From Bacteroidota bacterium (GTDB taxonomy: Bacteria; Bacteroidota; Bacteroidia; UKL13-3), in NCBI GenBank assembly GCA_027488905.1, contig JAIYAT010000010.1, forward strand, positions 21,061 through 85,060: a stretch of 64,000 nucleotides of DNA, read 5' to 3'. The notes under the pieces were generated by a model that did not search any database, was not told where the DNA came from, and was given only the letters and a program-made list of their open reading frames with translations. Position numbers and translations under genes: made by a program. Every line of letters begins with the position of its first letter. The first letter of the stretch is position 1. Of this stretch, positions 32,203 through 47,145 are shown piece by piece.

Positions 32203-32515
32203 GCGATTTTGCTTTTTTACAATTTCCTAAAATGTCAACTCAAAGGTAAATATTTGAAGCTAAATCCCAATGATTTAAGTAAGGTAAAAAAGGTTTCATA
32301 TAAAAGTTTTAAAGCAGTTTCGGGTTGAACCAAGATGGAATGTAGGGCGTAAGATGTGTTTTTAAAAGCTCCATCGGAGCATCCTGTTTGTAGGAAATGA
32401 TTTGTGTTTAAACAAAGCTCCGTAGGAGCGTTCTGTTGTTGAATAAAATAGATGTGCGTTCCAGATTATTCCAATACCCTTATTGCCGCCAATCGTCTGT
32501 TAGGCACAGTACAGA

Positions 32516-33215: not shown

Positions 33216-33280
33216 TCACTCCACTAATTTACAAAGTTTTAGCTAAAACTCCAACTTTACTGCAATTCTTATTGTATTGT

Positions 33281-33412
33281 GCCTAACGGTTTGAAGATTT
33301 GCGAATTGGCGGATTTGGAACTTCAACCTGTCGACTTGCAACAAAGGTAAGATTGGAAACGGAACGTACAAGTACCTCTTCAACCCGCCATTTTGCAAAT
33401 GTGCTGTTAGGC
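33281..33412. repeat. attC-like recombination site (family C)
   Basis: GCCTAAC at 33281-33287, GTTAGGC at 33406-33412, paired inner boxes TTTGCGAATTGGCGGATT / AACCCGCCATTTTGCAAA, asymmetric 10/6-nt internal loop. Confidence 0.6.
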
Positions 33413-33487
33413 ACAGTTTTTTGTCTTACTTCTTCAATTATTTTTCGTATTATTTATGTCTATTGAAGTTGAAATTAAGTAAAAAAG

Positions 33488-34261
33488 TCAACCTTTATAA
33501 TTCATCTTATTCCTTACGATGTCTATAAAGCCTTTAAATACTAACACAAAAGGATTATAACCAGCAAAACCTGAGGTCACTCCGTACTTCACCTTTTCTT
33601 TTTCAGATTCGTATGTACCAAAAATTTTATCCCAAATAATTAATGTTCCACCAAAGTTCTTGTCAATATAAATGTCGTTTGATCCGTGGTGTACTCGATG
33701 GTTGGATGGTGTGTCAATAATATTTTCTAAAAACCCCAACTTGCCTACCGCTTCGGTATGTAGGAAAAATTGATACAATAAATTAAAAGAATAGCATAGA
33801 ACTATAAAGTCAAGTGGCAGTCCCAAGAAAGCAAGTGGAATGTAAAACACAGGGCTTATCAAAGCACCCAACCAATTAAGTCTGTAAGAAACAGTGAGGT
33901 TATAAAATTGACTTGAATGATGTACCAAATGAAAAGCCCAAAAAAACTTTACCATATGAGAGCATCTGTGAAACCAATAGTAGCAAAAATCTACACCTAA
34001 AAAAGTAATTAAAAACATAAGTGTCGATTCTTCAAAGGTAAACAACCGAAACTGGTAAAAGAGACCAAAAATCCATAACTGATACCCTGCAAAAAGGAAT
34101 TTGGATAGTTGAAATCCTGCAAAAATACTAAGGTTGGCAAGGGTGTCTTTTACACCATAAGCCTTTTTATCTTTACGCCAACTCCAAATAATTTCGGCTG
34201 CAATTAAACCAAAAATAAAAAGGAGGGCGTACAACTTGTATTGTCCAAATTCAAATTCCAT
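33488..34261 (-). CDS. Sterol desaturase / fatty-acid hydroxylase superfamily membrane enzyme
   Basis: Histidine boxes HRCSH, HLVHH, HRVHHG. Confidence 0.75.
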   Translation of the reverse strand: MEFEFGQYKLYALLFIFGLIAAEIIWSWRKDKKAYGVKDTLANLSIFAGFQLSKFLFAGYQLWIFGLFYQFRLFTFEESTLMFLITFLGVDFCYYWFHRCSHMVKFFWAFHLVHHSSQFYNLTVSYRLNWLGALISPVFYIPLAFLGLPLDFIVLCYSFNLLYQFFLHTEAVGKLGFLENIIDTPSNHRVHHGSNDIYIDKNFGGTLIIWDKIFGTYESEKEKVKYGVTSGFAGYNPFVLVFKGFIDIVRNKMNYKG

Positions 34262-34290
34262 AAGATTACTTTGTTTAGATTATTTTTGCA

Positions 34291-34593
34291 TTAATTGGTT
34301 TTCGTCCAAACTATTTCTTTTTTCATCATTCCTTTTTTTACCACAAATCTGATTTTATTTCCTTCTAAATAGGCTTCACAATTTGCGGATGTGTTTTTCT
34401 TCGGATTGCTCAAAATACCTTGCCACTTGCCATCGGTAAATGTTAAATTATTGAGCACCAACACATCTTTTCCTTGTGGTTTTCCAATAAATGCTAAACC
34501 CGATTTGTTTATTTCAATTATGGCACCTTCGGCAGTTTTCCATTGACCCGTAAAATTGTCAGTAGATTTTTGTGCCATTGCAAATACAGTCAT
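34291..34593 (-). CDS. DUF2147-like small secreted protein (start uncertain)
   Basis: GQWKTAEGAIIEI... pattern; upstream in-frame hydrophobic stretch has no ATG; A16 tract immediately 5'. Confidence 0.4.
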   Translation of the reverse strand: MTVFAMAQKSTDNFTGQWKTAEGAIIEINKSGLAFIGKPQGKDVLVLNNLTFTDGKWQGILSNPKKNTSANCEAYLEGNKIRFVVKKGMMKKEIVWTKTN

Positions 34594-34618
34594 TAATAGA
34601 GCTATAAGAAGCGAAATA

Positions 34619-34634
34619 TTTTTTTTTTTTTTTT
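34619..34634. repeat. Homopolymeric T16 (A16 on coding strand) tract
   Basis: Read directly from sequence at 34619-34634, just upstream of the DUF2147-like ORF. Confidence 0.9.
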
Positions 34635-34714
34635 AAAAATTACATAAATTAATGATGCAAATTTATACTCCCAAAGAGGATAAACTCATTAACAAAAGAT
34701 AATAAAGGTTATGA

Positions 34715-35260
34715 TTAATATTTTTTCTTTGAAATACGTTGTCTAATCCTACTCAAAGAAACAGGTGTAATGCCTAACACATTAGCAATGTACTTGTCGG
34801 GTACACGGTTAATCATATTTGGGTAATCTTTAAGATATTGTTGGTATCTCTTTTCAGGGGAGAGAAAAACAAAGGAATCAATTCTTTGAAAAGCTTGTTT
34901 CAAAATTTGTCGACCAAAAATCCTGCTGTCCATTTTTTGAAAGTCTAAATTGTCAGAACTTAAATCTTGAAAAGTTTTTACATCTGTAAAGTACACTTTT
35001 GTTTTCTCCAAAGTTTCAAAGGTAAACTTGGAAGGTTCATCAAATAAAATGGTATGAACATTTCCAAATAGTTGCTTCTCGGCAAACAACTGAAAAGTAA
35101 TTTCCTCACCTTTGTCATTTATCAAAAAACTACGAACCAACCCTTTTCGGATATAGAAGACATTATTTGTTTTATCGCCTTCTTTTATTATACTCTCTCC
35201 TTTATCAAATGTTTTTGAGTTAAGATTTCGTAATAATTTAAAAAGGAATTTTATGTTCAT
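34715..35260 (-). CDS. Crp/Fnr-family transcriptional regulator (start at MNIKF)
   Basis: cNMP-binding-like N-domain and C-terminal HTH (YIANVLGITPVSLSRIRQRI). Confidence 0.65.
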   Translation of the reverse strand: MNIKFLFKLLRNLNSKTFDKGESIIKEGDKTNNVFYIRKGLVRSFLINDKGEEITFQLFAEKQLFGNVHTILFDEPSKFTFETLEKTKVYFTDVKTFQDLSSDNLDFQKMDSRIFGRQILKQAFQRIDSFVFLSPEKRYQQYLKDYPNMINRVPDKYIANVLGITPVSLSRIRQRISKKKY

Positions 35261-35289
35261 TCGTTTTTTTGTTTCTGCGGTAAAATTGT

Positions 35290-35422
35290 GCCTAACGTTT
35301 TGCGGCTTGGCGTAGTGGCGGATTTTTAGCACTAATGCTCATACGAAGAACTGCACTTGAACCTACCACAAAACTGTCATACGAGGCACAGAACTCGCCA
35401 TTACGCCAAACCGCTGTTAGCC
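35290..35422. repeat. attC-like recombination site (family C)
   Basis: GCCTAAC 35290-35296, GTTAGCC 35416-35422; stems TTGGCGTAGTGGCG / CGCCATTACGCCAA; 10/6 asymmetric loop. Confidence 0.6.
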
Positions 35423-35431
35423 ACAGTTATT

Positions 35432-36349
35432 CTAATTCAAATTTCGGAATTCTGTCGGACTTAATCCTACTTTTTTCCTAAACAAACTACTGAAGTAGTG
35501 TGAGTGTTCAAAGCCCAAGGAATAGGCAATTTCTTTTATAGAGTCATCACTACCTAGCAATCGGTCTTTGGCAATTTCCAGAAGGTGAAAGTGAATATGT
35601 TCTTGAGTGGTTTTTCCTGTTTCTTTACGAAGTAAATCACTTAAATAATTGGGGGAAAGATTAACTTGATCCGCACATTGTAATGCTGTCGGAAGCCCTT
35701 TTTCGGGAAGGTTAGCTGAATCAAAGTAGTTTTTTAAATAAGTATTGATAGTATCAATCACCGAATTATTTTCATTTGCTCTGGTAATAAATTGTCGGTC
35801 ATAAAAACGATTACAGTGATTCAATAAATATTCTATTGCGGATATCAATACGTTCTTGGTGTGCTTGTCGATGGGTCGATTGAGTTCAGTTTCTATTGTA
35901 TTGATGATTGACGAAAGGCACACTTTTTCATCTTCGGACAAATGCAATGCTTCGTTCGTGGTGTATTTAAAGAATGAGTATTCAGTAATTTTGTTAAACA
36001 GAGGAGTACCATAAATCAAATCGGGATGAAAGTATAGACCCCAATTATACCTACACTCTTCGAAAACAGGATTTTGAATGGTACTTACTTGTTCAGGTAA
36101 AGAAAAGAACAAGCTACCTTCCTGAAAATCTATTTGCTTTCTGCCATATTGCAAGCTTCCTGACTTCAGATGTTTTAATGTAATTACATAAAACGATGAA
36201 GCCACTTGTAAACCAGTGTGTTGAGATTCCTTCTGATGGTTATCTAATTTTGAAAAATCAATGACACTCACCAAAGGATGCTTCGGTGGGGGGATTTGAA
36301 ACATGTTATGCAACATGCTAATACTTTCGATCCTGATAATATCCTTCAT
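35432..36349 (-). CDS. AraC-family transcriptional regulator
   Basis: C-terminal double HTH (YLSDLLRKETGKT...IAYSLGFEHSHYFSSLFRKKVGLSPTEFR). Confidence 0.8.
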   Translation of the reverse strand: MKDIIRIESISMLHNMFQIPPPKHPLVSVIDFSKLDNHQKESQHTGLQVASSFYVITLKHLKSGSLQYGRKQIDFQEGSLFFSLPEQVSTIQNPVFEECRYNWGLYFHPDLIYGTPLFNKITEYSFFKYTTNEALHLSEDEKVCLSSIINTIETELNRPIDKHTKNVLISAIEYLLNHCNRFYDRQFITRANENNSVIDTINTYLKNYFDSANLPEKGLPTALQCADQVNLSPNYLSDLLRKETGKTTQEHIHFHLLEIAKDRLLGSDDSIKEIAYSLGFEHSHYFSSLFRKKVGLSPTEFRNLN

Positions 36350-36352
36350 TGT

Positions 36353-36838
36353 TTATAAGTTGGATAGTTTTTCAAAATAAGTGTCTATTGATTTTTTTGA
36401 AACGCTTTCAATAATCAGGTTTCCAACCGAAAATATGACCAATGAAAACAGTATTCCTTTTACCAATTCTTTATCAATAAAGAGATTTATAAGCAATGAA
36501 ACAATGATTAATATAACAAGCACAATTTGAATTTTAGGGTGGTTATTTACCACCTTTGCCATTCGTTCCTTTTCTTTTTGATGAAACGTTGCCGAACTTT
36601 CCTTGTATAACAAGGTTTGATTTTTTAGTAATTTTTCTTCTGTCATTTTATACCCAATGCCACTAACAGATGAGAATAATCCAAATATAATCAAACCAAT
36701 TTTCAATCCAATTAATACTGCATTCGACCCGGAAAAATGAATCAGGACAGCCAAAAGTAGCATTATAAAACCCAAAGCCAACATATAGTTGGCAATTGTT
36801 TTTTGGGCGTTAATGTATATTTCCAATTGTTCAAGCAT
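36353..36838 (-). CDS. Hypothetical membrane protein
   Basis: Four hydrophobic segments; no family. Confidence 0.4.
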   Translation of the reverse strand: MLEQLEIYINAQKTIANYMLALGFIMLLLAVLIHFSGSNAVLIGLKIGLIIFGLFSSVSGIGYKMTEEKLLKNQTLLYKESSATFHQKEKERMAKVVNNHPKIQIVLVILIIVSLLINLFIDKELVKGILFSLVIFSVGNLIIESVSKKSIDTYFEKLSNL

Positions 36839-36876
36839 AATTTATTTTTTTAATTTTCGAAGACTGCTGTCCATTC

Positions 36877-37707
36877 TTATTTTATGGATGCGCCCGGCAA
36901 AATTTGGTCTATCAAACCATAACCAAACCATCTTTTCATAAACTTACCCAATTTGCCATCAGCGTTAGGTGCGTATCTTCTTTTTGGAGAACCGCTCTTA
37001 GCTGCATGTAATACGGCTTTTGCAATCGTGTCAGACGAAGCTCCATTTTGGCAACCTTTACTCCAATTTTTCCTGAAATTTTTCATCTGCTCCTTATACG
37101 GTCCGGCATTGGGGTGTTTTTCACACTTATCCAAGTAGGGCAAACTGGCAGTGGGAATATCAGTATTGATGTAGCCCGGCTCGATGAGTGACACTTTAAT
37201 ACCAAATTCTTTGACTTCCATACGTAATCCATCCCCGACACCCTGCTGTGCATGCTTGGTAGCGGGATACCATGCCATACCGGGAGAGCCCATATGCCCC
37301 GCAACTGAGGAAGTAATGATGATTCTACCCGATTTTTGTTTTCTCATGTGGGGTAGCACAGCGGTAAATGCCCGGGCATTGCCTAACACATTGACATCAA
37401 ATTGGTATCTGACATCTTCAATGCTTTGCAACTCTACCGGACCCAAGAGGCAAAACCCGGCATTGGCGAAAAGCACATCGATTCTACCATCATCCTTGAT
37501 AATGGTATCAACTACCTTCTGAATGTCTTCATCCTTTGTTACATCACAAGGCATAACTACTGCTCCCAACACTTCTAAATCTTTCATTAAATGAGTTCTT
37601 CTTGCGGTGGCATATACCTTGAAACCGTTTGCTAATAACATCTTTGCAGATGCGTGACCAATACCGGTTGAAGCTCCAGTAATAAATGCGATTTTTTTAT
37701 TTTCCAT
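36877..37707 (-). CDS. SDR-family short-chain dehydrogenase/reductase
   Basis: TGASTGIG Rossmann motif, catalytic YxxxK (YPATKHA). Confidence 0.85.
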   Translation of the reverse strand: MENKKIAFITGASTGIGHASAKMLLANGFKVYATARRTHLMKDLEVLGAVVMPCDVTKDEDIQKVVDTIIKDDGRIDVLFANAGFCLLGPVELQSIEDVRYQFDVNVLGNARAFTAVLPHMRKQKSGRIIITSSVAGHMGSPGMAWYPATKHAQQGVGDGLRMEVKEFGIKVSLIEPGYINTDIPTASLPYLDKCEKHPNAGPYKEQMKNFRKNWSKGCQNGASSDTIAKAVLHAAKSGSPKRRYAPNADGKLGKFMKRWFGYGLIDQILPGASIK

Positions 37708-37850
37708 TATCTTATCTTTTTTGACGTTTAATAATGGTGCAAATTTAAAATGTCAACCTGTATTACAGATTACACAAATCTCGGATAAGCATTCATTTTT
37801 CTTAGATTGTCTAATAGAGTCTGGTTATTGCGGGTCGCTTTCATAATTGT

Positions 37851-38024
37851 GGCTAACGTTTCGGCGCTTGGCGCAGTAAGGGAATGGTTAGCACAAATTT
37901 TGCCAAGGCACTTTACTCCAAAAATAAACTTTTCTGCCTTTTCTTTTTCCTTTTATTCTAATGCCCTTATTTCGCCAAACGCATTTTATAAGCCGTTTTT
38001 CTTTTCCTTAAAACAGGTGTTAAT
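37851..38024. repeat. attC-like site (family A, long variant with conserved ~100-bp internal segment)
   Basis: Left GGCTAACGTTTCGGCGCTTGGCGCAGTAAGG; internal ccaaaaataaacttttctgcc...ttttattc...gcccttatt; right ...gccaaacgc...; four similar copies in the array. Confidence 0.45.
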
Positions 38025-38538
38025 CAATTTTTTTCAAGCTGTCATTTCCATAATAGTTTTTCTCCCACTCAGAAATATCAACTTTTTCAATTTCTTTTTG
38101 CCTTTTTTTTTCATAATCATTTGCATTAATAACCCCAAATAGAATCCAAAATGTCGTCCCGCCTAAAAGCAAAAAAAGTCGTTGATTAAATTTCTTTTGA
38201 TAGTTCTCCTTTTTAAGTTCACTTAATGAAAGACCAACTGTCCACTGTCTTGCTAGAATAAATGGAGCCATAAGAAAAATATAAATCATTTTTTCTATTG
38301 TATAGCTTTCGGTCTCGTTTTGTTCTAATTTTTTTTGATAAGCTAATTCTAATTTTTCAGCTTTCTTTTTCCATCTGTCTAAAGTCTTATCTTGGTCGTA
38401 TCGGGTAACTTTCCGTTTGTTTAGTTCGTCCTTTGCTTGGTCTATTGCGTCTTGTTGCCAATCATCAATTGTTCCATTTGCAATTGCAATTAGTTCTTCA
38501 GTGTCACGCCTTGAAATTGGTGGATTAAACTCTATCAC
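38020..38538 (-). CDS. Hypothetical membrane protein (cassette ORF)
   Basis: ORF with two central TM helices. Confidence 0.35.
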   Translation of the reverse strand: MIEFNPPISRRDTEELIAIANGTIDDWQQDAIDQAKDELNKRKVTRYDQDKTLDRWKKKAEKLELAYQKKLEQNETESYTIEKMIYIFLMAPFILARQWTVGLSLSELKKENYQKKFNQRLFLLLGGTTFWILFGVINANDYEKKRQKEIEKVDISEWEKNYYGNDSLKKID

Positions 38539-38570
38539 TATGGTATCTTTTAAAATAGCTTAAAACGTTT

Positions 38571-38692
38571 GCCAGCTACGAGAAGTTGGAGCCTGTCAGC
38601 ACAAATATAGTTGCCCAGAACCAATTTCAATTAACCACAAATGTGTCAGCGTAGCGCTGAACCGCCAATTTGTTGTTGGTGCTGTTTTAGGC
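38571..38692. repeat. attC-like site (family C2; left arm degenerate)
   Basis: Right arm aaccacaaatgtgtcagcgtagcgctgaaccgccaatttg...GTTTTAGGC nearly identical to the 43290 copy. Confidence 0.4.
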
Positions 38693-38725
38693 TGTTATTT
38701 TTCATGAAATCATTTGGTCATGTTA

Positions 38726-39238
38726 CTAAATATAATGTACCGATATTCCTTTTGCACTAGATAATTGTCTTAAAATTGTATAAAGTTTATTTTTCTCAAA
38801 ATCGTTGTGGAGATAGATATTCATTTGGTAAGTTTCATTTTTAGAATCGATTATTGAAATCACATTCTTTCTGCCGCTATTAAAAGCACCTAGAACTATT
38901 AGAGTGGAGTTGTTTTCACCAAAGCAACCATCAAAGTGAAAGATTATTTGTTTTGGTTTTATTGTTTTTTTTATATGTGTTAATGTTTCAATTTCAATTT
39001 CATCACTATAAAGATTAATCTGTCCAGTTTTATGTTTGTCCTGAAAAAAAAATCTTAAGAATTTAAGTAATATTATGATAACGAATGTAAATGGACCTAA
39101 AACATAAAAATATTTTTCAACCAAATTTAAATGAAATGATAATAAAATTAGTCCAATACTAAAAAAGCCGATACTAAAAGACCAAATGTTATACTTTATG
39201 TCCTTAGGATTTACGATGTCAAATGTTGCTTTATACAT
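38726..39238 (-). CDS. Hypothetical membrane protein (cassette ORF)
   Basis: ORF, N-terminal TM helices. Confidence 0.35.
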   Translation of the reverse strand: MYKATFDIVNPKDIKYNIWSFSIGFFSIGLILLSFHLNLVEKYFYVLGPFTFVIIILLKFLRFFFQDKHKTGQINLYSDEIEIETLTHIKKTIKPKQIIFHFDGCFGENNSTLIVLGAFNSGRKNVISIIDSKNETYQMNIYLHNDFEKNKLYTILRQLSSAKGISVHYI

Positions 39239-39242
39239 AATA

Positions 39243-39388
39243 GCCTATAACGTTTATACGCTTGGCGCAGTAAAGGAATCGTTGGCTCTTTTTCTCCTCA
39301 ATATGTTACTCCAAAAATAAACTTTTCTGCCGTTTCTTTTCCCTTAAAATCCTCAAGCCGTTATTGCATCCAAACGCGTGTTAGCGGC
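39243..39388. repeat. attC-like site (family A)
   Basis: GCCTATAACgtttatacgcTTGGCGCAGTAAAGG ... CCAAACGCGTGTTAGCGGC; arms pair with 10/6 loop. Confidence 0.5.
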
Positions 39389-39407
39389 TGCTCCTTTTGC
39401 TCAGTGG

Positions 39408-40079
39408 CTATAAGTACATTTTCAAATTTTCGTTTTCATCTGTCTGATACAATTCATTAAGTAATACTTTCATCTGGTCATTATTTTTGAAGTTGTTGCC
39501 TGTAAATTGTTTAATTCTATTTATTACTTCTTCTGAATCCCATGATGCAATATTACTAGCAAATCTTACTACCATCCCATTGCAGCGCATATCAATTGTT
39601 CCACCCTCGGTGACGTATTGAAGTTGTTGTTCTGTAACCCCCAAACCTGTAATGTCAACAGTTCCGTTATCTAAGGGGTGTTTTGTGTAATTATTTTGAC
39701 TGGCAATTTCTAAACTCGAGACTTCGGATATTGAGAATGATTTTGTCTTAATTGATCCAAATTGTTTGTTAATAATAGTAATCTGGTCTTTCGATATTTC
39801 AAGTGATTCCCTATTCAATACTTTCTTTAGATATTCTCTACCAGCAAGTACATATACCACGCATAATGCAATAATTATTATGGCAGCAATGGGAATGTCT
39901 GCAATTAACCTTATTGTAACACTAGTAAGAAATAGTGCGGTAGCGATTAATAATACTCCTTGGAAAATTAGACCAAACTTTATGATTGGACTTACTGATG
40001 GATAAATCTCTATTTTTAGTTTGTCTTTACTTTCAGTAAACTTTAGGGTTTCTTTCATTTTTGATTTAGTAGTGGGCAT
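39408..40079 (-). CDS. Hypothetical membrane protein (cassette ORF; start at MPTTK, ORF track gives 40139)
   Basis: ORF with two TM helices; trimmed so as not to run into the attC-like site. Confidence 0.35.
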   Translation of the reverse strand: MPTTKSKMKETLKFTESKDKLKIEIYPSVSPIIKFGLIFQGVLLIATALFLTSVTIRLIADIPIAAIIIIALCVVYVLAGREYLKKVLNRESLEISKDQITIINKQFGSIKTKSFSISEVSSLEIASQNNYTKHPLDNGTVDITGLGVTEQQLQYVTEGGTIDMRCNGMVVRFASNIASWDSEEVINRIKQFTGNNFKNNDQMKVLLNELYQTDENENLKMYL

Positions 40080-40111
40080 AAACAATGGTTGCACATGGAG
40101 TTGCAGATATC

Positions 40112-40233
40112 GTTTGACAGCTAATCGCAGATGGCCCAATTGCGGACCATTCTTCGTGATAGCAGCTTATCAAATATAGAAAAATTTCGCCTAAGAACAA
40201 CTAGGGCCATTTGTATTTAGGTGATGTTATGCC
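40112..40233. repeat. attC-like site (family B, left end truncated)
   Basis: ...AGCTAATCGCAGATGGCCCAATTGCGGACC ... GGGCCATTTGTATTTAGGTGATGTTATGCC; near-identical to copy at 41599. Confidence 0.4.
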
Positions 40234-40243
40234 TAGTTAATTT

Positions 40244-40915
40244 TTAAAGAATCATTGGTGCCATATTGAAATTTGTGTCTAATTTTTTATTTCCAATGGA
40301 GTCAAACATTTGGAATTTCCCGTTTAATAATGAACCGCCACCTACTTTATTATTATAATAAGGTTTCTTATACAATTTCCAGTTTTCTATAGTATTAATT
40401 TTCCCATTTTTAAAGTAACTTTTAAGGACACCTGATGGCAACCCCGTATTGTAATTATTCAACCGAATATATGTGCCCTCAAACCAAATATTTCCGTTCT
40501 CATATGGTACTTTTACATAGACACTATCCTCGTATATAATGATACCTTTCAGAGCAAATGCTTTAGTATAGTATGGATGAGTGTTGTTAAAATATTCTGG
40601 AATAACTGACCATTGTATCTTGCCATTTTTAAAAAGAGCTAATGAAACTAATTTGTTCTTTTGTGAGAAATGGAATATTTTGGAAATACTATCTAGCTCA
40701 TTGTCTTTATAAAATACTTCTCTGATTTCATTATTTAAAGAGTCATTTATTTTCCATAATCCTTGTTTTAATCCTTTTTCATCTATAAAGTTAATTTCAG
40801 TCTTTATTTTAATATTACTTATTGAATCGGCAATTGGAATTTGTTGATTTTTAGCGTCCTTTCCTTGGTTAAAACAAGAGGAAATGAATAATATTATTAT
40901 GTAATGAAATTTCAT
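40244..40915 (-). CDS. Lipoprotein with MORN-variant (YwqK-like) repeats
   Basis: Lipobox SSC; repeated ...KNGKI...G.W..Y..NG units. Confidence 0.45.
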   Translation of the reverse strand: MKFHYIIILFISSCFNQGKDAKNQQIPIADSISNIKIKTEINFIDEKGLKQGLWKINDSLNNEIREVFYKDNELDSISKIFHFSQKNKLVSLALFKNGKIQWSVIPEYFNNTHPYYTKAFALKGIIIYEDSVYVKVPYENGNIWFEGTYIRLNNYNTGLPSGVLKSYFKNGKINTIENWKLYKKPYYNNKVGGGSLLNGKFQMFDSIGNKKLDTNFNMAPMIL

Positions 40916-40924
40916 CTTATAAAT

Positions 40925-41080
40925 TGGGCATTACGCTGTTTGTGTTCTTGGCGCAGTAAGGGAATGGTTACCACAAATTCGCTCAAGCACTTTACCCCAA
41001 AAATAAACTTTTCTGCCGTTACTTTTTCCTTTTATTCCAATGCCCTTATTGTGTCAAACGTGTCTTATGTGCTGTTATTT
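40925..41080. repeat. attC-like site (family A)
   Basis: gggcattacgctgtttgtgttcTTGGCGCAGTAAGG ... internal conserved block ... gtcaaacgtgtcttatgtgctgtt. Confidence 0.45.
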
Positions 41081-41578
41081 TTGCATGATTACATTTCTTT
41101 CTAGCTCTTTAAATAATGTCCACATATTTGTGACTTTGTTATAAAAGAACTTAGTTACTCGAACGTCCATTAAGGCTTGAGTTTGAAACAAAAAGTCCGA
41201 ATAAATGTCTTCTCTCCATTGAACAATATCTCCACTAATTATGACTTCTATTGTGTCGGTTTTTAGTACTTTGCGATAAATATTGTAAATGTATCTGCCG
41301 CTGTCCGCATTGTCTCCTTGGCATATGGCTTGTCTTGGTGTCTGATGTGCAATGAACCTAAAATGGTTTTGCCCGACTTTTCCATTTAGTAAAGTGGAAT
41401 CCAAGTCTGTCCGCATAATAATATAGCCATACCTCTTTTGGTCTTGATGGATAGATGAGTCAGAAAAATATTTTCTAATTGTCATATTATAAAGTCTTGA
41501 CAAATCTTTTTCAGTAGGCTTTTGACCAAAAGAAATTGTTGCCAACAAGATTGCTAGAATTAACATAAATTTAGGCAT
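41075..41578 (-). CDS. Hypothetical secreted protein (cassette ORF)
   Basis: Signal peptide MPKFMLILAILLATISFG. Confidence 0.35.
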   Translation of the reverse strand: MPKFMLILAILLATISFGQKPTEKDLSRLYNMTIRKYFSDSSIHQDQKRYGYIIMRTDLDSTLLNGKVGQNHFRFIAHQTPRQAICQGDNADSGRYIYNIYRKVLKTDTIEVIISGDIVQWREDIYSDFLFQTQALMDVRVTKFFYNKVTNMWTLFKELERNVIMQK

Positions 41579-41598
41579 ATTTTGTCGTCATTATAATA

Positions 41599-41732
41599 GC
41601 CACTAACGTTTAATTGCTAACCGCAGATGGCCCAATTGCGGACCATTCTTCATGATAGCAGCTTATCAAATATAGAAAATTATTCATAGCGAACAACCGA
41701 AGGGCCATTTGCGGTTAGGTGTTGTTAGCGGC
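41599..41732. repeat. attC-like site (family B, complete)
   Basis: GCCACTAACgtttaattGCTAACCGCAGATGGCC ... GGCCATTTGCGGTTAGGtgttGTTAGCGGC, clear inverted arms. Confidence 0.5.
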
Positions 41733-41780
41733 TGTTTTTTCTTTATTCCGAAGGTGTGTTGTTGAATGCACACACATAGT

Positions 41781-42368
41781 TTATTCAATGTTTGATAAAT
41801 CTAAATAATCTCCGCTGTCATGCCCTATGGCTACAAATAATTTCTCATTGCTTGTCAAAAAGAGTTTCCTGTTGAGTTTCGTTCTGATAATTTCATCAAA
41901 TGTCAACGAACAATAAGCTAGCGGTAAAATCCAGTCGAGGAATTCATAATTGTCTTTGTCAGTTCTTGCTATGTCTTCAATTTGTTGTAGCAAAGTTGGC
42001 TGAGCATAACTATTCTCTGGAACATAAATTGGGTCTAAAGCCCAATCTAAATCATCCTTTTCATACTTGTCCGCACCTGCTAAATAAATTGTTGGAATTT
42101 CTTTTTCATTATCCTCAAATTTTATAATACCTATCCAAAGCGCAACAACACTGCTTGGAAGCGGCGAGATTGTTACAAGATTTTGAAGCCATTCAAGAAT
42201 ATCTGCTTGTTCTTTGTCAATATCTAAATTTCGCAAGGCAGTCCAGTAAGGTTTAGGATTTGTGCTTTCGTGATTGTCAATAAAACTATTCCAAGCATCT
42301 TTTGCAGTTAGTTTTGCAGCGAAAATCGATGTCAAGCTATCCCAAGATTTGTCATGTTGAAATTCCAT
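41781..42368 (-). CDS. Hypothetical cytoplasmic protein (cassette ORF)
   Basis: ORF only. Confidence 0.35.
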   Translation of the reverse strand: MEFQHDKSWDSLTSIFAAKLTAKDAWNSFIDNHESTNPKPYWTALRNLDIDKEQADILEWLQNLVTISPLPSSVVALWIGIIKFEDNEKEIPTIYLAGADKYEKDDLDWALDPIYVPENSYAQPTLLQQIEDIARTDKDNYEFLDWILPLAYCSLTFDEIIRTKLNRKLFLTSNEKLFVAIGHDSGDYLDLSNIE

Positions 42369-42418
42369 ATCAGTTTTTTTCTGCTATCAGTTTAATGTTT
42401 GCACGATGATCCTATAAT

Positions 42419-42565
42419 AGCCGCCAATGTTTGTGTTCTTGGCGCAGTAAGGGAATGATTAGCACAAATTTCGCTCTTGCGCTTTAAGCCAAAAATAAAC
42501 TTTTCTGCCTTTTCTTTTTCCTTTTATTCTTAAGCCCTTATTGCCGCCAAACGCGTGTCGGCAGT
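42419..42565. repeat. attC-like site (family A)
   Basis: tagccgccaatgtttgtgttcTTGGCGCAGTAAGG ... gccgccaaacgcgtgtcggcag. Confidence 0.45.
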
Positions 42566-42573
42566 AGTGCTTA

Positions 42574-42993
42574 TTAGTCGGGTTTATTATTTTCCCAATA
42601 TTCTTTTGGTGTTACAATTTTGGTCTTTTTATAGGTCGAAAATGTAAAGTCATTTGTATTTCCAGTAATAACAAAGTTGGCTATGCTTTCGTCAGCAAGT
42701 TCCAAAATTTTATTATCATCAACATCAGAAATCAAGTCAAGTTTTATTCTCGGATGAAATTTAGTTGCCCTACTTTCAATATCCACAAGAAGAGATTCTG
42801 CCCGTATAAAAAAGTCTTGAAATTTCGCAAACTTTGGTCGAGCTAACACCTCATAATACTCGGCCATTAATTCTTCAGAAATACATAGTTGGAACTTGTT
42901 CTCCAGAAAAAGGTCGTTAATAATCTGGTTTGGATAACTTTTTTGAATTAAAGCTGAAACAATAACATTCGTGTCAATTACGATTTTTTGCAT
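42574..42993 (-). CDS. vapC: PIN-domain toxin (VapC-like)
   Basis: N-terminal IVIDTNVIVSAL with acidic residues spaced as in PIN domains; 139 aa. Confidence 0.7.
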   Translation of the reverse strand: MQKIVIDTNVIVSALIQKSYPNQIINDLFLENKFQLCISEELMAEYYEVLARPKFAKFQDFFIRAESLLVDIESRATKFHPRIKLDLISDVDDNKILELADESIANFVITGNTNDFTFSTYKKTKIVTPKEYWENNKPD

Positions 42994-43225
42994 TATGTCT
43001 AACAGCTTTTACTTCATTTGTTATTTCGTCAATATCCATATTAGAAAGACCATATTTTTCAGCGAGCTGAATGCATTTGTTTAGATTTTGACGAGTCAAT
43101 TCTTTACTCACAAGGTCGATAAAGTCTGTAAAATTTAGGTTGTCGTTTTTAATGCCGAATTTACTATACTCAAGGTCGGATATTGAAATATTCAAGGTTC
43201 TCATTTTTTTTATATCTATATTCAA
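42974..43225 (-). CDS. Putative antitoxin partner of the PIN toxin
   Basis: 83-aa ORF overlapping the PIN gene start by 20 nt. Confidence 0.45.
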   Translation of the reverse strand: MNIDIKKMRTLNISISDLEYSKFGIKNDNLNFTDFIDLVSKELTRQNLNKCIQLAEKYGLSNMDIDEITNEVKAVRHNAKNRN

Positions 43226-43289
43226 AAATAAGAAAAAATATTTGGGTTTAAGAAGGTCTTATTTTTTTGCAAATTTAAATAGCATTACT

Positions 43290-43419
43290 GCCAACGTTTT
43301 CGGGCTTGGCGAAGGTGGCGATTTTCACCACAAATGTTGATGCGGAAAACCAAACTTTGATTAACCACAAATGTGTCTGCGGAGCACTGAACCGCCACTT
43401 TTGCCAAACCCGTGTTACC
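43290..43419. repeat. attC-like site (family C2)
   Basis: GCCAACgttttcgggcTTGGCGAAGGTGGCG ... CGCCACTTTTGCCAAacccgtGTTACCT; 10/6 loop. Confidence 0.5.
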
Positions 43420-43429
43420 TGCTGCCCTT

Positions 43430-44248
43430 TTAGTTTTCATTCGTTATAAGTGAAAATTTTCCGTTGTTTAGTAAGGTCTTGATGTTGTCTAAAATTTGGT
43501 TGGGTGCGTAATAGTTTGGATGACTTTGAAAAATAGCAGCGTCATTCATTATAGCTTCTATTTCTTGTTTTGTCTGCTCTACTTGTCCCTTGTCGGCAAA
43601 TTTAAGGGAATTGGGTTTGAACCAATCCACTTCAATACAATAGTTGATTTGCTTTGAACAACGACAAGGATTTTTGGGGTCATAAATACCACATTGTTTT
43701 GCCATAAAAGCCCTTATTTGTTGTCGTGCTAAGGAAAGTCTTTTTCTGAACGTTGTTGGTTCAATGTCAAGAATGTATGCCCCTTCATTACTGTCAAACT
43801 CCAAGATTTCTCCAACCAAATATGCCAAACGTAACGTTCTCGACACACAAATTAGCATACTAGTACTACAAGCAATTTTTACTTCTTCTTCCAATAAGTT
43901 TGCATCGGCTTTTTCGTAGGCTGGGTAAGTTGCACCAACTTTAAGATGGTACTCGCCTTCTTCAAAGGTGAGGTTTTCAATTTCGGTTCTTTTCATATTC
44001 AGCAAATAGTTAGTTGCTACCCTATACACCCAGGTGGTAAAGCTACTTTCACCTTTGAATTTGGAAAGGTTGGTCAACACCTTCAAAAGAATTTCTTGTG
44101 TAGCATCTTCCGCATCCATCGGATTCCAGAGGTAACGAACAGATAAATTGTATACATTTCGCTGAATGCACCTTATCAGTATTTCAATGGATTTTTTATC
44201 ACCATTCAGGCAATTCTCTATGAGTTCTATGTAGTTTATTTTTTCCAT
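43430..44248 (-). CDS. Sigma-70-family (ECF-like) sigma factor with ~90-aa Cys-containing C-terminal extension
   Basis: Region 2 (DAEDATQEILLKVLTNLSKFKGESSFTTWVYRVATNYLLN), region 4 HTH, then CGIYDPKNPCRCSKQINYC extension. Confidence 0.65.
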   Translation of the reverse strand: MEKINYIELIENCLNGDKKSIEILIRCIQRNVYNLSVRYLWNPMDAEDATQEILLKVLTNLSKFKGESSFTTWVYRVATNYLLNMKRTEIENLTFEEGEYHLKVGATYPAYEKADANLLEEEVKIACSTSMLICVSRTLRLAYLVGEILEFDSNEGAYILDIEPTTFRKRLSLARQQIRAFMAKQCGIYDPKNPCRCSKQINYCIEVDWFKPNSLKFADKGQVEQTKQEIEAIMNDAAIFQSHPNYYAPNQILDNIKTLLNNGKFSLITNEN

Positions 44249-44278
44249 TCTCCGAACCAGTACTTATTAAATACAAAA

Positions 44279-44629
44279 CTAAGTAGCATAATAGAATTTT
44301 TCTTTCACTATCAAACCATTTTCCCAATGTCTTACTGCTACTTCAGGATAAATAATTTTTTCGCTCTGCTCATTGGTATAATCAAAAAGGACTTCCTGAA
44401 TGCTCAGATTTTCACCATACGCCACGCTTAAAACTTTGAGTTTTAAGTCGGGAAATGCCTCTACAAAACCACCACACTGTTCACGATTGAAGTATTTGCC
44501 CACTCGTGGTTCGGTTTCGTTTTCCTGCATCGTTATATTTTCAGCATAGAAAAGCTCAAATGCTTCCATTGCTTTACCTTGCTCAATCATTGTGTTGAGC
44601 TGCTCATTGTTGTGTTTAAAATTACTCAT
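44279..44629 (-). CDS. NTF2/SnoaL-like small protein
   Basis: 116 aa, composition and C-terminal W..G.I.KE.FYY pattern typical of SnoaL-like folds. Confidence 0.4.
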   Translation of the reverse strand: MSNFKHNNEQLNTMIEQGKAMEAFELFYAENITMQENETEPRVGKYFNREQCGGFVEAFPDLKLKVLSVAYGENLSIQEVLFDYTNEQSEKIIYPEVAVRHWENGLIVKEKFYYAT

Positions 44630-44649
44630 TTTTTAAAATTTCGATGTGA

Positions 44650-45300
44650 TTAATTAAAAGTTTTTCGCAGAAATAAACCAGCATTCGGGTTGAATGTTGT
44701 TTCCAATTCATTGCTAACAGGGTTTCTAAATGTCGGTATTTGCGTGTCGCACCCAATGCCAAACTGAAATCCTTTATGCTCAAGTCCGAGCCTTATTTGC
44801 TGAAAACTGAAGTTGTGTTGCTGGAAATTAAAGTTAGTGCTAAAAGTGAGTTGAGAAAAGAATTTCAGTTTTTTAGTCAATTTAGGGTTATACACTAAAA
44901 GTCCAAACATTTCGTAGTTTGGTTTATTGGTCAATTCAATGGTCGGGAAAACATTAAGGTACAAGTCTCCTTTTTCATTGAAGTATTGCAAAGAAATTGC
45001 TGCAATTGGAACAAAGCCTTGATTTGTCATATACCCCCCCGTTGCAACACCAACGTATTGATTAAAATTAAACGTTGCAACAGAGTAAATAAATGGGTCA
45101 ACTGTTGACCTATCCTTGTAGTCAACAGTAAAATAAGTCAGGTTAAAAAAGCTGACGATACCAAGAGAGTCAATGGGTTTAGAAATAAGGATTTCGTGTT
45201 GAGCCTTTTTGTGTCCGCCAAAGACTTCGCCATAAATGATTTGTGCTTGCAAGGTCTGGCTTAGAAATGCCAAAATGAGAATTAAGAAAATTTGCTTCAT
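44650..45300 (-). CDS. Hypothetical outer-membrane beta-barrel protein (start at MKQIF; ORF track gives 45492)
   Basis: Signal peptide then beta-rich sequence ending in F. Confidence 0.4.
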   Translation of the reverse strand: MKQIFLILILAFLSQTLQAQIIYGEVFGGHKKAQHEILISKPIDSLGIVSFFNLTYFTVDYKDRSTVDPFIYSVATFNFNQYVGVATGGYMTNQGFVPIAAISLQYFNEKGDLYLNVFPTIELTNKPNYEMFGLLVYNPKLTKKLKFFSQLTFSTNFNFQQHNFSFQQIRLGLEHKGFQFGIGCDTQIPTFRNPVSNELETTFNPNAGLFLRKTFN

Positions 45301-45519
45301 ACTTGTCTGAATAAACTGTTTTGTCCATTTGACACAATTCAACCTACAAGTGTGAAGTGAAATTTGAAATTTTTTTGAGGTTTGTCGTTTAGGGTTGCAG
45401 GTAACTCTTTTACTTGCGAAGCAAAATACTAAATTAAGGTTAATTATTGTGAAATTGCCGATGGAAATTATCGTTTTATTGAAAGTTAGCAATTGATTAA
45501 TTTAGGTTCAGAAAGGCTC

Positions 45520-45756
45520 CTAACTCTCCAATACACCCGCACTCACACCCACACTCTTGCTCACACTCACACTCTTGCTTTTCACTCTTTCTCTTCCCTC
45601 TTTCTCTTCCCTCTTTTTCTTCCCTCTTGCTCCATACTGCTTATGTACCCCGCAATCAGTTTGGAGTGTGAGTCTTGAGCAAGAGTTTACGCACTTAATG
45701 AGAGTCTTCCAAAGCACTCTTTCTCCTCCCTCTTGCTCCATACTGCTTAGGTACCC
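45520..45756. repeat. Polypyrimidine (CT / CA-CT) low-complexity tract with ~45-bp internal direct repeat
   Basis: cactcacacccacactcttgctcacactcacactc... ctctttctcttccct units; ctcttgctccatactgctta(t/g)gtacccc occurs twice. Confidence 0.8.
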
Positions 45757-45758
45757 CC

Positions 45759-46022
45759 TTGGATTATCGTGATTACCCCCTTGGATTAACATGGACACCC
45801 GCTTGGATTAACATGGTTACCCCCTTGGATTAACATGGTTACCCCCTTGGATTAACATGGGTACCCGCTTGGATTAACATAGGTACCCGCTTGGATTAAC
45901 ATGGGTACCTGCTTGGATTAACATGGGTACCCCCTTGGATTAACATGGGTACCTGCTTGGATTAACATAGGTACCCGCTTGGAGCATCGTGGGTACCCCC
46001 TTGGTGTAACATATATAAGAAG
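45759..46022. repeat. 22-bp tandem direct repeat, ~12 copies (consensus TTGGATTAACATGGGTACCCSC), iteron-like
   Basis: Units begin at 45759, 45781, 45803 ... 46001 with exact 22-bp phasing; terminal copies degenerate. Confidence 0.9.
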
Positions 46023-46962: not shown

Positions 46963-47145
46963 ATTGCATATGCAAGGACAATATCCTAGGCAAACACCCT
47001 TTCATTTGCATATTTCGCAAATAAACCAGCACTTAATTTGCACTACACCCAAATGGAAAGTAATTTTTTTACACCAAATGCAATTTTATTTTGGGCAAAT
47101 TGGGGAGTTGAAGCAGACCATGGTCCATCGACAATGGTCCATGGT

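What the first reader, a model, noticed from the sequence alone, without database searches (positions are those of the whole stretch)
33281..35422. attC-like sites share a conserved asymmetric fold: 7-bp R boxes, 10-nt versus 6-nt internal loop, GGCGG/CCGCC inner stem
Aligning the left arm with the reverse complement of the right arm gives the same geometry in four sites. At 33281-33412 the left arm is GCCTAAC-ggtttgaaga-TTTGCGAATTGGCGGATT and the right-arm reverse complement is GCCTAAC-agcaca-TTTGCAAAATGGCGGGTT. The sites at 35290-35422 and 43290-43419, and the family A site at 39243-39388, show the same layout. In each, a 7-bp outer box pairs, an asymmetric loop has 10 nt on the left and 6 nt on the right, and a 14-18 bp inner stem built around TTGGCG...GGCG follows. 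The nucleotide sequences otherwise differ. Conserved structure with divergent sequence argues for a recombination site recognised as folded single-stranded DNA. The unpaired bases could be the strand-selection determinants.
Basis: seen in the sequence. Interest (0 to 1): 0.7.

Follow-up and report, generated by a model that had tools for sequence, protein, structure and literature searches.

The report
Non-canonical integron-like sites in Bacteroidota
The repeats are real recombination-type hairpin sites separating mobile gene cassettes, but they belong to a Bacteroidota-wide family whose shape and partner enzyme differ from classical integrons, which have been reported as nearly absent from this phylum.

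Summary
Ten sites (33.3-43.4 kb, all on the + strand), plus one truncated remnant, share R-box ends (YTAAC...GTTAR). They have 10 nt versus 6 nt between the R box and a ~15-bp inner stem. The "10:6 loop" is really a 5:1 loop (GTTTT versus T), then a covarying 4-bp GC helix, then a C·A mismatch.

A model built from the window finds about 170 such sites in about 130 loci, almost all Bacteroidota, and always co-oriented within a locus. The inner stem is 96.7% paired, and 18 of 19 pairs show compensatory changes.

Cassette logic is integron-like. The 8 nt after each site's GTT are the inverted repeat of the 8 nt before the next site's AAC. This places the crossover in the R box beside the 5-nt loop.

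The sites fail the defining attC feature. There are no extrahelical bases on the R''-L'' arm, and the extra bases sit on the R'-L' arm. The span is fixed at 124 nt. The centre holds four phased CACNWA repeats, and cores are 90-100% identical across orders.

In related genomes the neighbouring recombinase is IntI-like but lacks the IntI insertion and has a HARP-like N-terminus. The window has no recombinase.

Verdict: a new variant of a known kind, and interesting.

The parts
32476..32509 (+). s0: truncated site remnant. Only the right arm and R box survive (CCCTTATTGCCGCCAATCGTCTGTTAGGCACAG). It marks the distal end of the array.
   Evidence: The right arm matches the family A sites (s9). Its GTTAGGCACA flank is the inverted repeat of the left flank of s1.
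33276..33418 (+). s1: complete site (AAC to GTT 33285-33408, 124 nt). The R boxes GCCTAAC/GTTAGGC pair 7/7. The loop is GGTTT and the 4-bp helix is weak here.
   Evidence: (63.4 bits, E 1.6e-14).
35285..35428 (+). s2: complete site. R' box 35290-35296 GCCTAAC; 5-nt loop 35297-35301 GTTTT; 4-bp helix 35302-35305/35411-35414; C·A mismatch 35306/35410; 15-bp inner stem 35307-35321/35395-35409 with G·T at 35315/35401; centre 35322-35394; single T 35415; R'' box 35416-35422 GTTAGCC.
   Evidence: 73.5 bits, E 2.9e-17.
37846..37997 (+). s3: family A site with a degenerate right R box (TTTATAAGCC).
   Evidence: 56.9 bits.
38555..38696 (+). s4: site with inner-stem sequence CTACGAG.../...GTTGTTGG.
   Evidence: 55.7 bits.
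39238..39393 (+). s5: family A site, degenerate. The model matches it only partially.
   Evidence: 16.2 bits, E 0.098 for 39248-39308.
40100..40238 (+). s6: family B site (CTAATCGCAGATGGCCC.../...GGGCCATTTGTATTTAG) with a degenerate left R box (GATATC).
   Evidence: 49.9 bits.
40926..41076 (+). s7: family A site with degenerate R boxes.
   Evidence: 46.1 bits.
41596..41736 (+). s8: family B site with an inner stem that is 94% complementary over 17 nt.
   Evidence: 65.3 bits, E 4.9e-15.
42417..42569 (+). s9: family A site.
   Evidence: 56.5 bits.
43284..43426 (+). s10: complete site (AAC to GTT 43293-43416, 124 nt). Its core is 95-99% identical to sites in about 18 other Bacteroidota genomes.
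   Evidence: (62.1 bits).
45395..45405 (-). Candidate attI-like remnant. It reads GTTACCTGCAA on the gene-sense strand and would be the start of the first cassette. No recombinase gene lies upstream of it.
   Evidence: It is 9/11 complementary to the right flank of s10. It resembles the GTTAGC(R)GCAA motif found 90-310 nt downstream of the recombinase stop in 13 related loci. This assignment is inferred.
33488..45492 (-). Cassette genes, all on the - strand, each block ending just upstream of a site. They include FA hydroxylase, a cNMP-binding regulator, AraC, SDR, a PIN toxin with a small partner (42574-43225), a sigma-70-like protein, a SnoaL-like protein, and many ORFs with no Pfam hit.

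Best explanation
The window holds a recombinase-less cassette array (about 32.5-45.4 kb) of a Bacteroidota-type, integron-like gene-capture system.

Each cassette lies on the - strand. It starts with TTAGNC..., carries one to three genes, and ends with a site of about 140 nt.

The strand antisense to the genes is the + strand here, equivalent to the integron 'bottom' strand. It folds into a long hairpin with these parts, in order:
- a short R box (YTAAC/GTTAR)
- a 5:1 asymmetric loop (G-T-T-T-T opposite T) directly 3' of the AAC
- a 4-bp GC helix
- a C·A mismatch
- a ~15-bp stem with fixed G·T wobbles
- a ~65-nt centre with four phased CACNWA direct repeats.

Exchange happens in the R box next to the 5-nt loop (AA|C on the folded strand, G|TT on the gene strand). 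A cassette therefore carries the outer half of the upstream R box at its 5' end. That half is complementary to the cassette's own R''.

The enzyme, seen in related genomes but absent from this window, is an IntI/Xer-like tyrosine recombinase. It is co-oriented with the cassettes and followed by a GTTAGC-type attI. It lacks the IntI insertion that reads extrahelical bases and instead carries one to three N-terminal HARP-like modules.

Shown: the fold and its covariation, the cassette boundaries, the architecture, and the domain content.
Inferred: that the DNA is recognised single-stranded, that the 5-nt loop, mismatches and central repeats set polarity, and that the HARP-like domain reads them.
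For: Fold:
- 76.9% of cells are paired in the 10 window sites, against 37-45% in slid registers, and 0 of 500 shuffles reach this.
- In 121 related sites the inner helix is 96.7% paired, 18 of 19 pairs show compensatory changes, and the covariation score is 0.479 against at most 0.08 when slid.

Conserved irregularities in register:
- G after AAC in 121/121, loop T's in 99-119/121, a single T in 120/121, G·T in 121/121, and C·A in 80/96.
- These also hold in the 48 sites that lack my search pattern.
- The arm-length difference is 4 nt in 106 of 121 sites.

Strand:
- The + type strand is more stable in 94 of 130 sites (mean difference -1.34 kcal/mol, Wilcoxon p 1.5e-8).
- It is also more stable in 4 of 5 divergent Algoriphagus sites.

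Boundaries:
- Neighbour-flank complementarity is 5.34 of 8, against 2.84 for the own site and 2.65 for the wrong neighbour (p 5e-11 and 2e-8).
- 9-10 of 11 window junctions fit this rule.
- The junctions of the L012 tandem cassette duplication share only CGCACAAC.

Architecture:
- Every locus with two or more hits has them all on one strand.
- The recombinase lies within 4 kb in about 20 of 120 loci. In 10 of 11 usable cases its 3' end faces the array.
- A GTTAGC(R)GC motif lies 90-310 nt after the recombinase stop in 13 loci.
- Isolate genomes of Algoriphagus yeomjeoni and Cecembia calidifontis show recombinase, then attI, then cassettes.

Enzyme:
- TIGR02249 scores 185-217 bits, below its cutoff of 265, and the match is split in two.
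- About 40 residues of IntI1 (roughly 194-245) have no counterpart.
- Pfam HARP matches 8 of 20 N-termini, best E 4.8e-5.
- The PDB profile search hits the SMARCAL1 HARP domain 4o66 at E 0.012.

Cassette content is typical of chromosomal integrons, including a toxin-antitoxin pair and many unknowns.
Against: - There is no recombinase or remnant in the window, so activity here cannot be assumed.
- One duplicated 1757-nt segment in L104 is bounded by the other (right) R boxes.
- Homologous right flanks occur with different site cores. Exchange therefore does not occur only at the inferred crossover point, or gene conversion reshuffles the cores.
- Cores that are 90-100% identical across orders with unrelated flanks are unlike classical attC sites and could indicate a self-spreading element.
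- The related loci were fished with a pattern containing AACGTTT, and the model was trained on window sites. Conservation of the loop sequence is therefore partly selected for.
- Divergent sites in the same kind of array have loops of other sequence and asymmetries of 1-4 nt.
- The HARP assignment rests on marginal scores (Foldseek E 0.05-0.08).
- Single-strand recognition is not demonstrated.
Confidence: 0.75

Rival explanations
1. This is an ordinary CALIN: standard attC sites of a classical integron whose canonical IntI lies elsewhere in the genome or was lost. On this view the unusual geometry is just lineage-specific variation.
For: - RYYYAAC/GTTRRRY-like ends, G after AAC, co-oriented promoterless cassettes and a toxin-antitoxin cassette.
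- The cassette-boundary rule is identical to that of integrons.
- Length is within the published 57-142 nt range (PMC2727003).
Against: - Extrahelical bases are by definition on the R''-L'' arm (PMC2727003). They are absent here, and the extra bases are on the opposite arm.
- In about 13 related loci and two isolate genomes, the recombinase placed exactly where an intI would be lacks the IntI insertion and scores below the TIGR02249 cutoff.
- IntegronFinder surveys mention only In0 in Bacteroidetes, and later one complete integron in Salinibacter (PMC9024848).
Confidence: 0.12
2. The repeats are MITE-like or REP-like mobile elements that spread on their own into intergenic DNA. On this view the nearby recombinase and the cassette look are incidental.
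For: - Site cores are 90-100% identical across different orders while both flanks are unrelated.
- Sites are mosaic.
- The sites have long terminal inverted repeats.
- Assemblies break at the array edges.
Against: - All copies in a locus have the same orientation in about 40 multi-site loci.
- Every inter-site segment is bounded by 7-10-nt inverted repeats that vary from cassette to cassette. Independent insertions would not create this pattern.
- A conserved attI-like motif follows the recombinase gene.
- Compensatory changes between families show selection on the fold.
Confidence: 0.07
3. The repeats are structured RNA elements transcribed with or against the cassette genes, such as terminators, processing sites or small RNAs with protein-binding repeats.
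For: - Strong covariation, invariant G·U-compatible wobbles and four phased short motifs in the centre resemble protein-sponge RNAs.
Against: - There is no Rfam match at gathering threshold.
- The better-folding strand is antisense to the genes.
- There is no T-run after the hairpin on the gene strand.
- An RNA role does not explain the neighbour R-box rule, the tandem cassette duplication junctions, or the linkage to a tyrosine recombinase and attI motif.
Confidence: 0.04

Closest known systems
Integron attC sites (59-base elements), as defined for IntI1/VchIntIA substrates (Bouvier et al. 2009, PMC2727003; MacDonald et al. 2006, cited from my own knowledge)
   Same: - Imperfect palindrome with RYYYAAC...GTTRRRY-type ends.
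- G after AAC on the bottom strand.
- A conserved fold with covariation.
- An unpaired spacer between the R box and the next helix.
- One site at the 3' end of each co-oriented cassette.
- Crossover in R', so that a cassette's 5' end pairs with its own R''.
- The bottom strand is the better-folding one.
   Different: - There are no extrahelical bases on the R''-L'' arm.
- The 4 extra nucleotides lie on the R'-L' arm, directly beside the cleavage position, as a 5:1 spacer.
- Mismatches are fixed: C·A and G·T.
- The AAC-to-GTT span is almost fixed at 124 nt (97 of 147 sites) rather than ranging over 57-142 nt.
- The terminal 'variable' structure is conserved and built from four phased CACNWA direct repeats.
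- Whole cores are 90-100% identical across orders.
Integron integrases (IntI; TIGR02249, defined by the intI_Cterm insertion, Messier & Roy 2001 and Cury et al. 2016, PMC4889954)
   Same: - The recombinase next to related arrays has Phage_int_SAM_4 plus Phage_integrase domains.
- It is 28-32% identical to IntI1 over the full length.
- It scores higher on the IntI model than on the XerC/XerD models.
- It ends with the SPLD-type C-terminus.
- It is followed by a GTTAGC-type primary site.
   Different: - It lacks the ~40-residue IntI-specific insertion, and its score is below the family cutoff.
- It has one to three extra N-terminal HARP-like modules.
- The gene is co-oriented with the cassettes and upstream of them, not divergent.
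- None is present in this window.
CALIN (cluster of attC sites lacking an integron integrase; Cury et al. 2016)
   Same: An array of at least 10 co-oriented sites and cassettes, with no recombinase within the 64-kb window.
   Different: CALINs are defined by hits to the canonical attC model. These sites are a different structural class. According to the published surveys, such hits were not mentioned for Bacteroidetes.
Vibrio cholerae repeats (VCRs) of sedentary chromosomal integrons
   Same: Long sites (over 120 nt), highly similar to each other, in a chromosomal array containing toxin-antitoxin cassettes.
   Different: VCR similarity is confined to one lineage, and VCRs have canonical extrahelical bases. 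Here several distinct site families coexist in one array, and each family is shared nearly unchanged by distant genera.

Membership tests
Integron attC site | Terminal inverse core and core boxes R'' (RYYYAAC) and R' (GTTRRRY) | tested here: met
   The consensus is YTAAC...GTTAR. AAC is present in 120/121 sites and GTT in 119-120/121. Some window sites have degenerate boxes (s3, s6, s7, s9).
Integron attC site | Imperfect palindrome whose fold, not its sequence, is conserved | tested here: inconclusive
   The fold is strongly conserved and covaries. However, sequence is also conserved: cores are 90-100% identical across genomes within families.
Integron attC site | Extrahelical bases on the R''-L'' arm with no partner on the R'-L' arm | tested here: not met
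   There is no conserved bulge in the 20-bp stem. The R'-L' arm is the longer one, by 4 nt in 106 of 121 sites. The definition is taken from PMC2727003.
Integron attC site | Unpaired central spacer between the R box and the L box | tested here: met
   A spacer is present but asymmetric: 5 nt opposite 1 nt.
Integron attC site | Crossover in R', so that each cassette's own R'' pairs with the R' half at the cassette's 5' end | tested here: met
   Neighbour rule: 5.34 of 8 against 2.84 of 8 (own site) and 2.65 of 8 (wrong neighbour). Also supported by window junctions and L012 duplication junctions. One counter-example is L104.
Integron attC site | Detected by the IntegronFinder attC covariance model | not testable with these tools
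   The model is not available here. There is only an indirect hint: surveys mention only In0 for Bacteroidetes (PMC9024848).
Integron attC site | Recombined as folded bottom-strand DNA by an integron integrase | not testable with these tools
   This needs a strand-specific delivery assay or binding assays. Indirect evidence is that the bottom-type strand is more stable in 94 of 130 sites.
Integron integrase (IntI), applied to the recombinase of related loci | Tyrosine recombinase domain plus the IntI-specific insertion near patch III | tested here: not met
   PF00589 is present. TIGR02249 scores 185-217 bits, below its cutoff of 265, in two stretches. About 40 residues of IntI1 are unmatched.
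Complete integron platform | intI, attI and a cassette array in one locus | tested here: not met
   The window has an array and a candidate attI remnant, but no recombinase by tblastn with IntI1 or with three Bacteroidota recombinases.
CALIN | At least two attC sites in close succession with no integrase nearby | tested here: inconclusive
   The architecture is met. The sites are not canonical attC, so membership depends on how the definition is read.
MITE / REP-type dispersed repeat | Copies in either orientation, inserted independently, with target-site duplication | tested here: not met
   Orientation is uniform in all multi-site loci. Flanks are cassette-specific inverted repeats, not direct repeats.
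Rfam RNA families | Match at gathering score | tested here: not met
   There were 0 matches in the 64-kb window.
HARP domain (PF07443), applied to the recombinase N-terminus | Sequence and fold similarity to the SMARCAL1 HARP substrate-recognition domain | tested here: inconclusive
   - 8 of 20 members hit PF07443, best E 4.8e-5. The gathering cutoff was not evaluated.
- The PDB profile search hits 4o66 at E 0.012.
- The AF2 model has pLDDT 85.
- Foldseek top hits are the XPB damage-recognition domain and HARP, but at E 0.05-0.5.

The most novel reading that the evidence does not exclude
Bacteroidota, and some Ignavibacteria, may carry a second, previously unrecognised lineage of integron-like gene-capture platforms.
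- The recombinase would be a HARP-domain-fused, IntI-related tyrosine recombinase without the IntI insertion.
- It would act on 124-nt folded sites that replace extrahelical bases with a 5:1 bulge on the opposite arm, fixed mismatches, and four phased protein-binding repeats in the loop.

This would explain why integron surveys report this phylum as almost integron-free.
Probability: 0.5. Interest if true: 0.85.

Novelty: new variant of a known kind. Interest (0 to 1): 0.75.

Why it matters
Integron biology rests on two linked hallmarks: the IntI-specific insertion, and the extrahelical bases of attC that it reads. Genome surveys use both as filters, and on that basis they report Bacteroidetes as nearly devoid of integrons (PMC9024848, PMC4889954).

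The data here show cassette arrays with integron logic. They have one folded site per cassette, a crossover in R', an attI after the recombinase, and toxin-antitoxin and restriction-modification cassettes. Yet they have neither hallmark.

If confirmed, three things follow.
- Cassette capture through folded DNA would have evolved, or diversified, with a different strand-selection device.
- A major environmental and host-associated phylum would have a large unsurveyed cassette pool.
- The HARP-like domain and the phased central repeats would give directly testable hypotheses for how polarity is read without extrahelical bases.

For this window specifically, the finding explains 13 kb of strain-variable DNA at which metagenome assemblies break.

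Tried and rejected
- A strict RYYYAAC...GTTRRRY regex found only s1. A looser ungapped arm comparison found nothing. Both were too rigid for a 4-nt indel.
- Rfam at gathering threshold gave nothing.
- Pfam on ten ORFs flanking the array found no integrase.
- L013 versus L085 looked like a shared cassette, but L085 ends at the contig edge, so the left boundary was uninformative.
- Look-ups of flanking and cassette proteins to find strain variation returned only the same arrangement, or contigs that break at about 32.4 kb and 46.9 kb.
- The L104 duplication contradicts the simple crossover model and remains unexplained.
- I first considered the + strand as the 'top' strand, because its 5' arm is the longer one as in canonical attC. 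I rejected this because of gene orientation, the neighbour R-box rule, attI polarity, and G after AAC.
- Foldseek of the N-terminal model gave only weak matches.
- Six literature searches found no description of Bacteroidota-type sites or of HARP-fused recombinases. The library is incomplete, so absence there is not proof of novelty.
Full report
**1. What is in the window**

Between about 32.5 and 45.4 kb all genes lie on the - strand. They are separated by long imperfect hairpin sites. I located ten complete or degenerate sites:
- s1 33281-33412
- s2 35290-35422
- s3 ~37851-37992
- s4 ~38558-38693
- s5 39243-39388
- s6 ~40100-40235
- s7 ~40930-41074
- s8 ~41600-41735
- s9 ~42420-42565
- s10 43290-43419

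There is also one truncated right arm, s0, at 32476-32509. The sites end in GCCTAAC...GTTAGGC-type boxes.

The cassette genes are typical of chromosomal cassette arrays. They include a fatty-acid hydroxylase, a cNMP-binding regulator, an AraC regulator, an SDR, a PIN toxin with a small partner, a sigma-70-like protein, a SnoaL-like protein, and many ORFs without any Pfam match.

**2. Check of the observation**

I aligned each left arm with the reverse complement of its right arm. This shows a constant 4-nt surplus on the left (+ strand 5') arm, directly after AAC.
- MAFFT plus RNAalifold recovers one common register for all ten sites. Fifteen of 21 predicted pairs are kept through double changes.
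- A hand-drawn structure on the arms gives 76.9% paired cells, against 37-45% when the 3' partners are slid by 1-3 columns. None of 500 shuffles reaches the observed values.
- A covariance model of the arms (R1) finds exactly these ten sites in the 64 kb, all on the + strand.

They hold in 120 of 121 related sites.

However, the stretch is not an open loop. It has three parts:
- a 5-nt loop (consensus GTTTT) opposite a single T
- a 4-bp GC-rich helix that covaries freely (GC 89/CG 15; GC 59/CG 52; GC 48/CG 47/AU 20; GC 102)
- a C·A mismatch.

In s1 the short helix is weak, which is why it looked like a loop.

**3. The family outside the window**

I scanned one genome per species for AACGTTTNNNNGCTTGGCGNAG. 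Nearly all are Bacteroidota (Chitinophagaceae, Saprospiraceae, Flavobacteriales, Cytophagales, Bacteroidales), with a few Ignavibacteria.

R1 finds 121 sites in the first 100 loci and 49 in a search of the other 20 loci plus nine recombinase-bearing loci already covered, so the two counts overlap. In every locus with several hits, all hits are on one strand.

On the 121-site alignment:
- The inner helix is 96.7% paired.
- 18 of 19 pairs have compensatory changes.
- The covariation score is 0.479, against at most 0.08 in slid registers.

The alignment is fitted to the model and the loci were selected by a left-arm pattern. I therefore repeated the column counts on the 48 sites that lack the pattern. 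The results still hold: G after AAC 48/48, single T 48/48, and G·T 48/48.

The stem has fixed irregularities:
- C·A at stem position 5 (80/96)
- G·T, G·A or G-C at position 11
- G·T at position 14 (89/96).

The strand shown folds better than its complement in 94 of 130 sites (mean difference -1.34 kcal/mol, p 1.5e-8).

**4. Cassette boundaries and crossover**

Within one site, the bases outside YTAAC/GTTAR pair at chance level (2.84 of 8). The 8 nt after the GTT of a site are instead the inverted repeat of the 8 nt before the AAC of the next site. The mean is 5.34 of 8, and 30 of 44 pairs score 6-7. The wrong neighbour scores 2.65.

In gene-sense orientation this means each cassette begins with TTAGNNNNN and ends with a site whose R'' is complementary to that beginning. 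Integron cassettes have exactly this property when the crossover is at G|TT of R'.

Further support:
- 9-10 of the 11 window junctions obey the rule, including s0/s1.
- In L012 a tandemly duplicated cassette has junctions that share only CGCACAAC.
- G follows AAC on the folded strand. This is also conserved in classical attC sites (PMC2727003).

One case does not fit. In L104 a duplicated 1757-nt segment is bounded by the other R boxes. In addition, homologous flanks occur with different site cores, which suggests gene conversion or exchange of the inner module.

**5. The enzyme in related genomes**

tblastn with IntI1 finds a recombinase in about 20 of the 120 loci, each of which spans only 8 kb. 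In 10 of 11 usable cases its 3' end faces the array, and it is co-oriented with the cassettes.

A GTTAGC(R)GC-type motif lies 90-310 nt after its stop codon in 13 loci. This motif is the counterpart of attI. The Algoriphagus yeomjeoni and Cecembia calidifontis genomes show recombinase, then attI, then cassettes. The Cecembia cassettes include restriction-modification genes.

Properties of the protein:
- It has Phage_int_SAM_4 and Phage_integrase domains.
- It scores 185-217 bits on TIGR02249 (cutoff 265), higher than on the XerC/XerD models, and the match is split in two.
- Aligned with IntI1 (31% identity), about 40 residues of IntI1, roughly 194-245, have no counterpart. This is the IntI-specific insertion.
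- NCBI names the family 'site-specific tyrosine recombinase/integron integrase'.

Its extra N-terminal ~75 residues are present in one to three copies. The evidence that they are HARP-like is:
- They match Pfam HARP in 8 of 20 members (best E 4.8e-5).
- They match the SMARCAL1 HARP domain in the PDB (E 0.012).
- An AlphaFold model (pLDDT 85) has as best fold matches the XPB damage-recognition domain bound to forked DNA, and HARP itself. These matches are weak (E 0.05-0.5).

From my own knowledge, HARP domains bind junctions between single- and double-stranded DNA. That fits a folded substrate, but the link is an inference.

**6. How this differs from classical attC**

By definition, extrahelical bases lie on the R''-L'' arm. 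They direct strand choice and are read by the IntI insertion (PMC2727003; PMC4889954).

Here there is no such bulge. The surplus of 4 nt lies on the R'-L' arm, next to the cleavage position.

Other differences:
- The AAC-to-GTT span is 124 nt in 97 of 147 sites.
- The centre is not variable. It carries CACNWA motifs at positions ~36, ~55, ~73 and ~92, all in one orientation.
- Whole cores are 90-100% identical between genomes of different orders while both flanks are unrelated.

More divergent sites in the same kind of array keep the polarity of the asymmetry (1-4 nt longer on the R' arm) and the G·T wobbles, but not the loop sequence. The exact 5:1 GTTTT loop is therefore a trait of the large family to which the window's sites belong, not a universal rule.

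**7. State of this array**

The window has no recombinase or remnant. A candidate attI remnant lies at 45395-45405 (GTTACCTGCAA on the gene strand) and pairs 9 of 11 with the flank of s10. Where the recombinase gene would be expected there is low-complexity DNA and a 22-nt x 12 tandem repeat.

Metagenome contigs of the same strain break at about 32.4 kb and 46.9 kb, which are the array edges. The array is thus the counterpart of a CALIN. Whether it is still mobilised in trans cannot be told from the window.

**8. Rivals**

- An ordinary CALIN of a classical integron is disfavoured by the failed attC and IntI features and by the survey literature.
- A MITE-like repeat is disfavoured by the uniform orientation and the cassette-specific inverted flanks. 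The near-identity of cores across orders remains odd.
- An RNA element is disfavoured by the absence of an Rfam match, by the antisense polarity, and by the recombination signatures.

**9. Novelty**

I found no description of these sites, or of HARP-fused IntI-like recombinases, in the searchable library.

One classification paper notes that the insertion is 'not fully conserved' in its integron-like subgroup, but it does not link such proteins to arrays (PMC8138268).

The library is incomplete, so I rate this as a new variant of a known kind, with moderate-to-high interest.

Noticed in passing
window 45542-46012: There is low-complexity CT-rich DNA here, with 18-nt and 13-nt periods. It is followed by a 22-nt x 12 tandem repeat (GGTACCCCCTTGGATTAACATG) at 45750-46012. 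This lies where the recombinase gene of the array would be expected.
   Followed up: partly
window 32366-32432: Two near-identical small hairpins (AAAGCTCCATCGGAGC and AAAGCTCCGTAGGAGC) sit where the left part of the truncated site s0 should be. This may be a REP-like insertion that destroyed the last site.
   Followed up: no
window 47103-47159: A 26-nt inverted repeat, 88% complementary, with a 5-nt spacer (GGGAGTTGAAGCAGACCATGGTCCAT / ATGGTCCATGGTCTACTCCAACTCCC). It overlaps the 3' end of the Polyketide_cyc2 gene (47146-47685, - strand).
   Followed up: no
window 34618-34634: A run of about 17 T inside the three-gene cassette between s1 and s2, in the gap between the 100-aa ORF and the cNMP-binding regulator.
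   Followed up: no
window 42574-43225: A PIN_3 toxin gene overlaps an 83-aa ORF. This is a toxin-antitoxin-like cassette, as is common in sedentary chromosomal integrons.
   Followed up: partly
window ~32436 and ~46897: Metagenome contigs carrying the exact flanking proteins all end at these two positions. The array between them is therefore strain-variable or unassemblable in short-read data.
   Followed up: partly
L104 1148-2905 and 3882-5637: A 1757-nt segment is duplicated at 95% identity. It is bounded on both sides by the right-hand (R'') boxes of sites, not by the R' boxes. This is the one clear exception to the crossover rule.
   Followed up: partly
L048 6225-6349 versus L110 137-261 (also L002/L012/L031): These are mosaic sites. 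The outer arms and the right flank are the same but the inner core belongs to a different family. This suggests gene conversion or module exchange between sites.
   Followed up: partly
L002, L012, L013, L085, L048, L078, L110: 100-250 nt to the right of the sites: A conserved element with the inverted repeat TTTGCAAGC...GCTTGCAAA recurs in the cassette body next to sites in several unrelated genomes. It could be a shared gene end or a second structured element.
   Followed up: no
L093 ~7301 onward and L087 ~1223 onward: Two other IntI1-similar recombinases are followed by a Cys-rich (CPKCQ) IS91-like transposase gene instead of an attI motif and cassettes. They are a different kind of element sharing the recombinase fold.
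   Followed up: no
L138 12625-19765 (Cecembia calidifontis): The cassettes of this array encode DNA methylases, an MvaI/BcnI-type restriction enzyme and Vsr. These are defence genes carried as cassettes.
   Followed up: no
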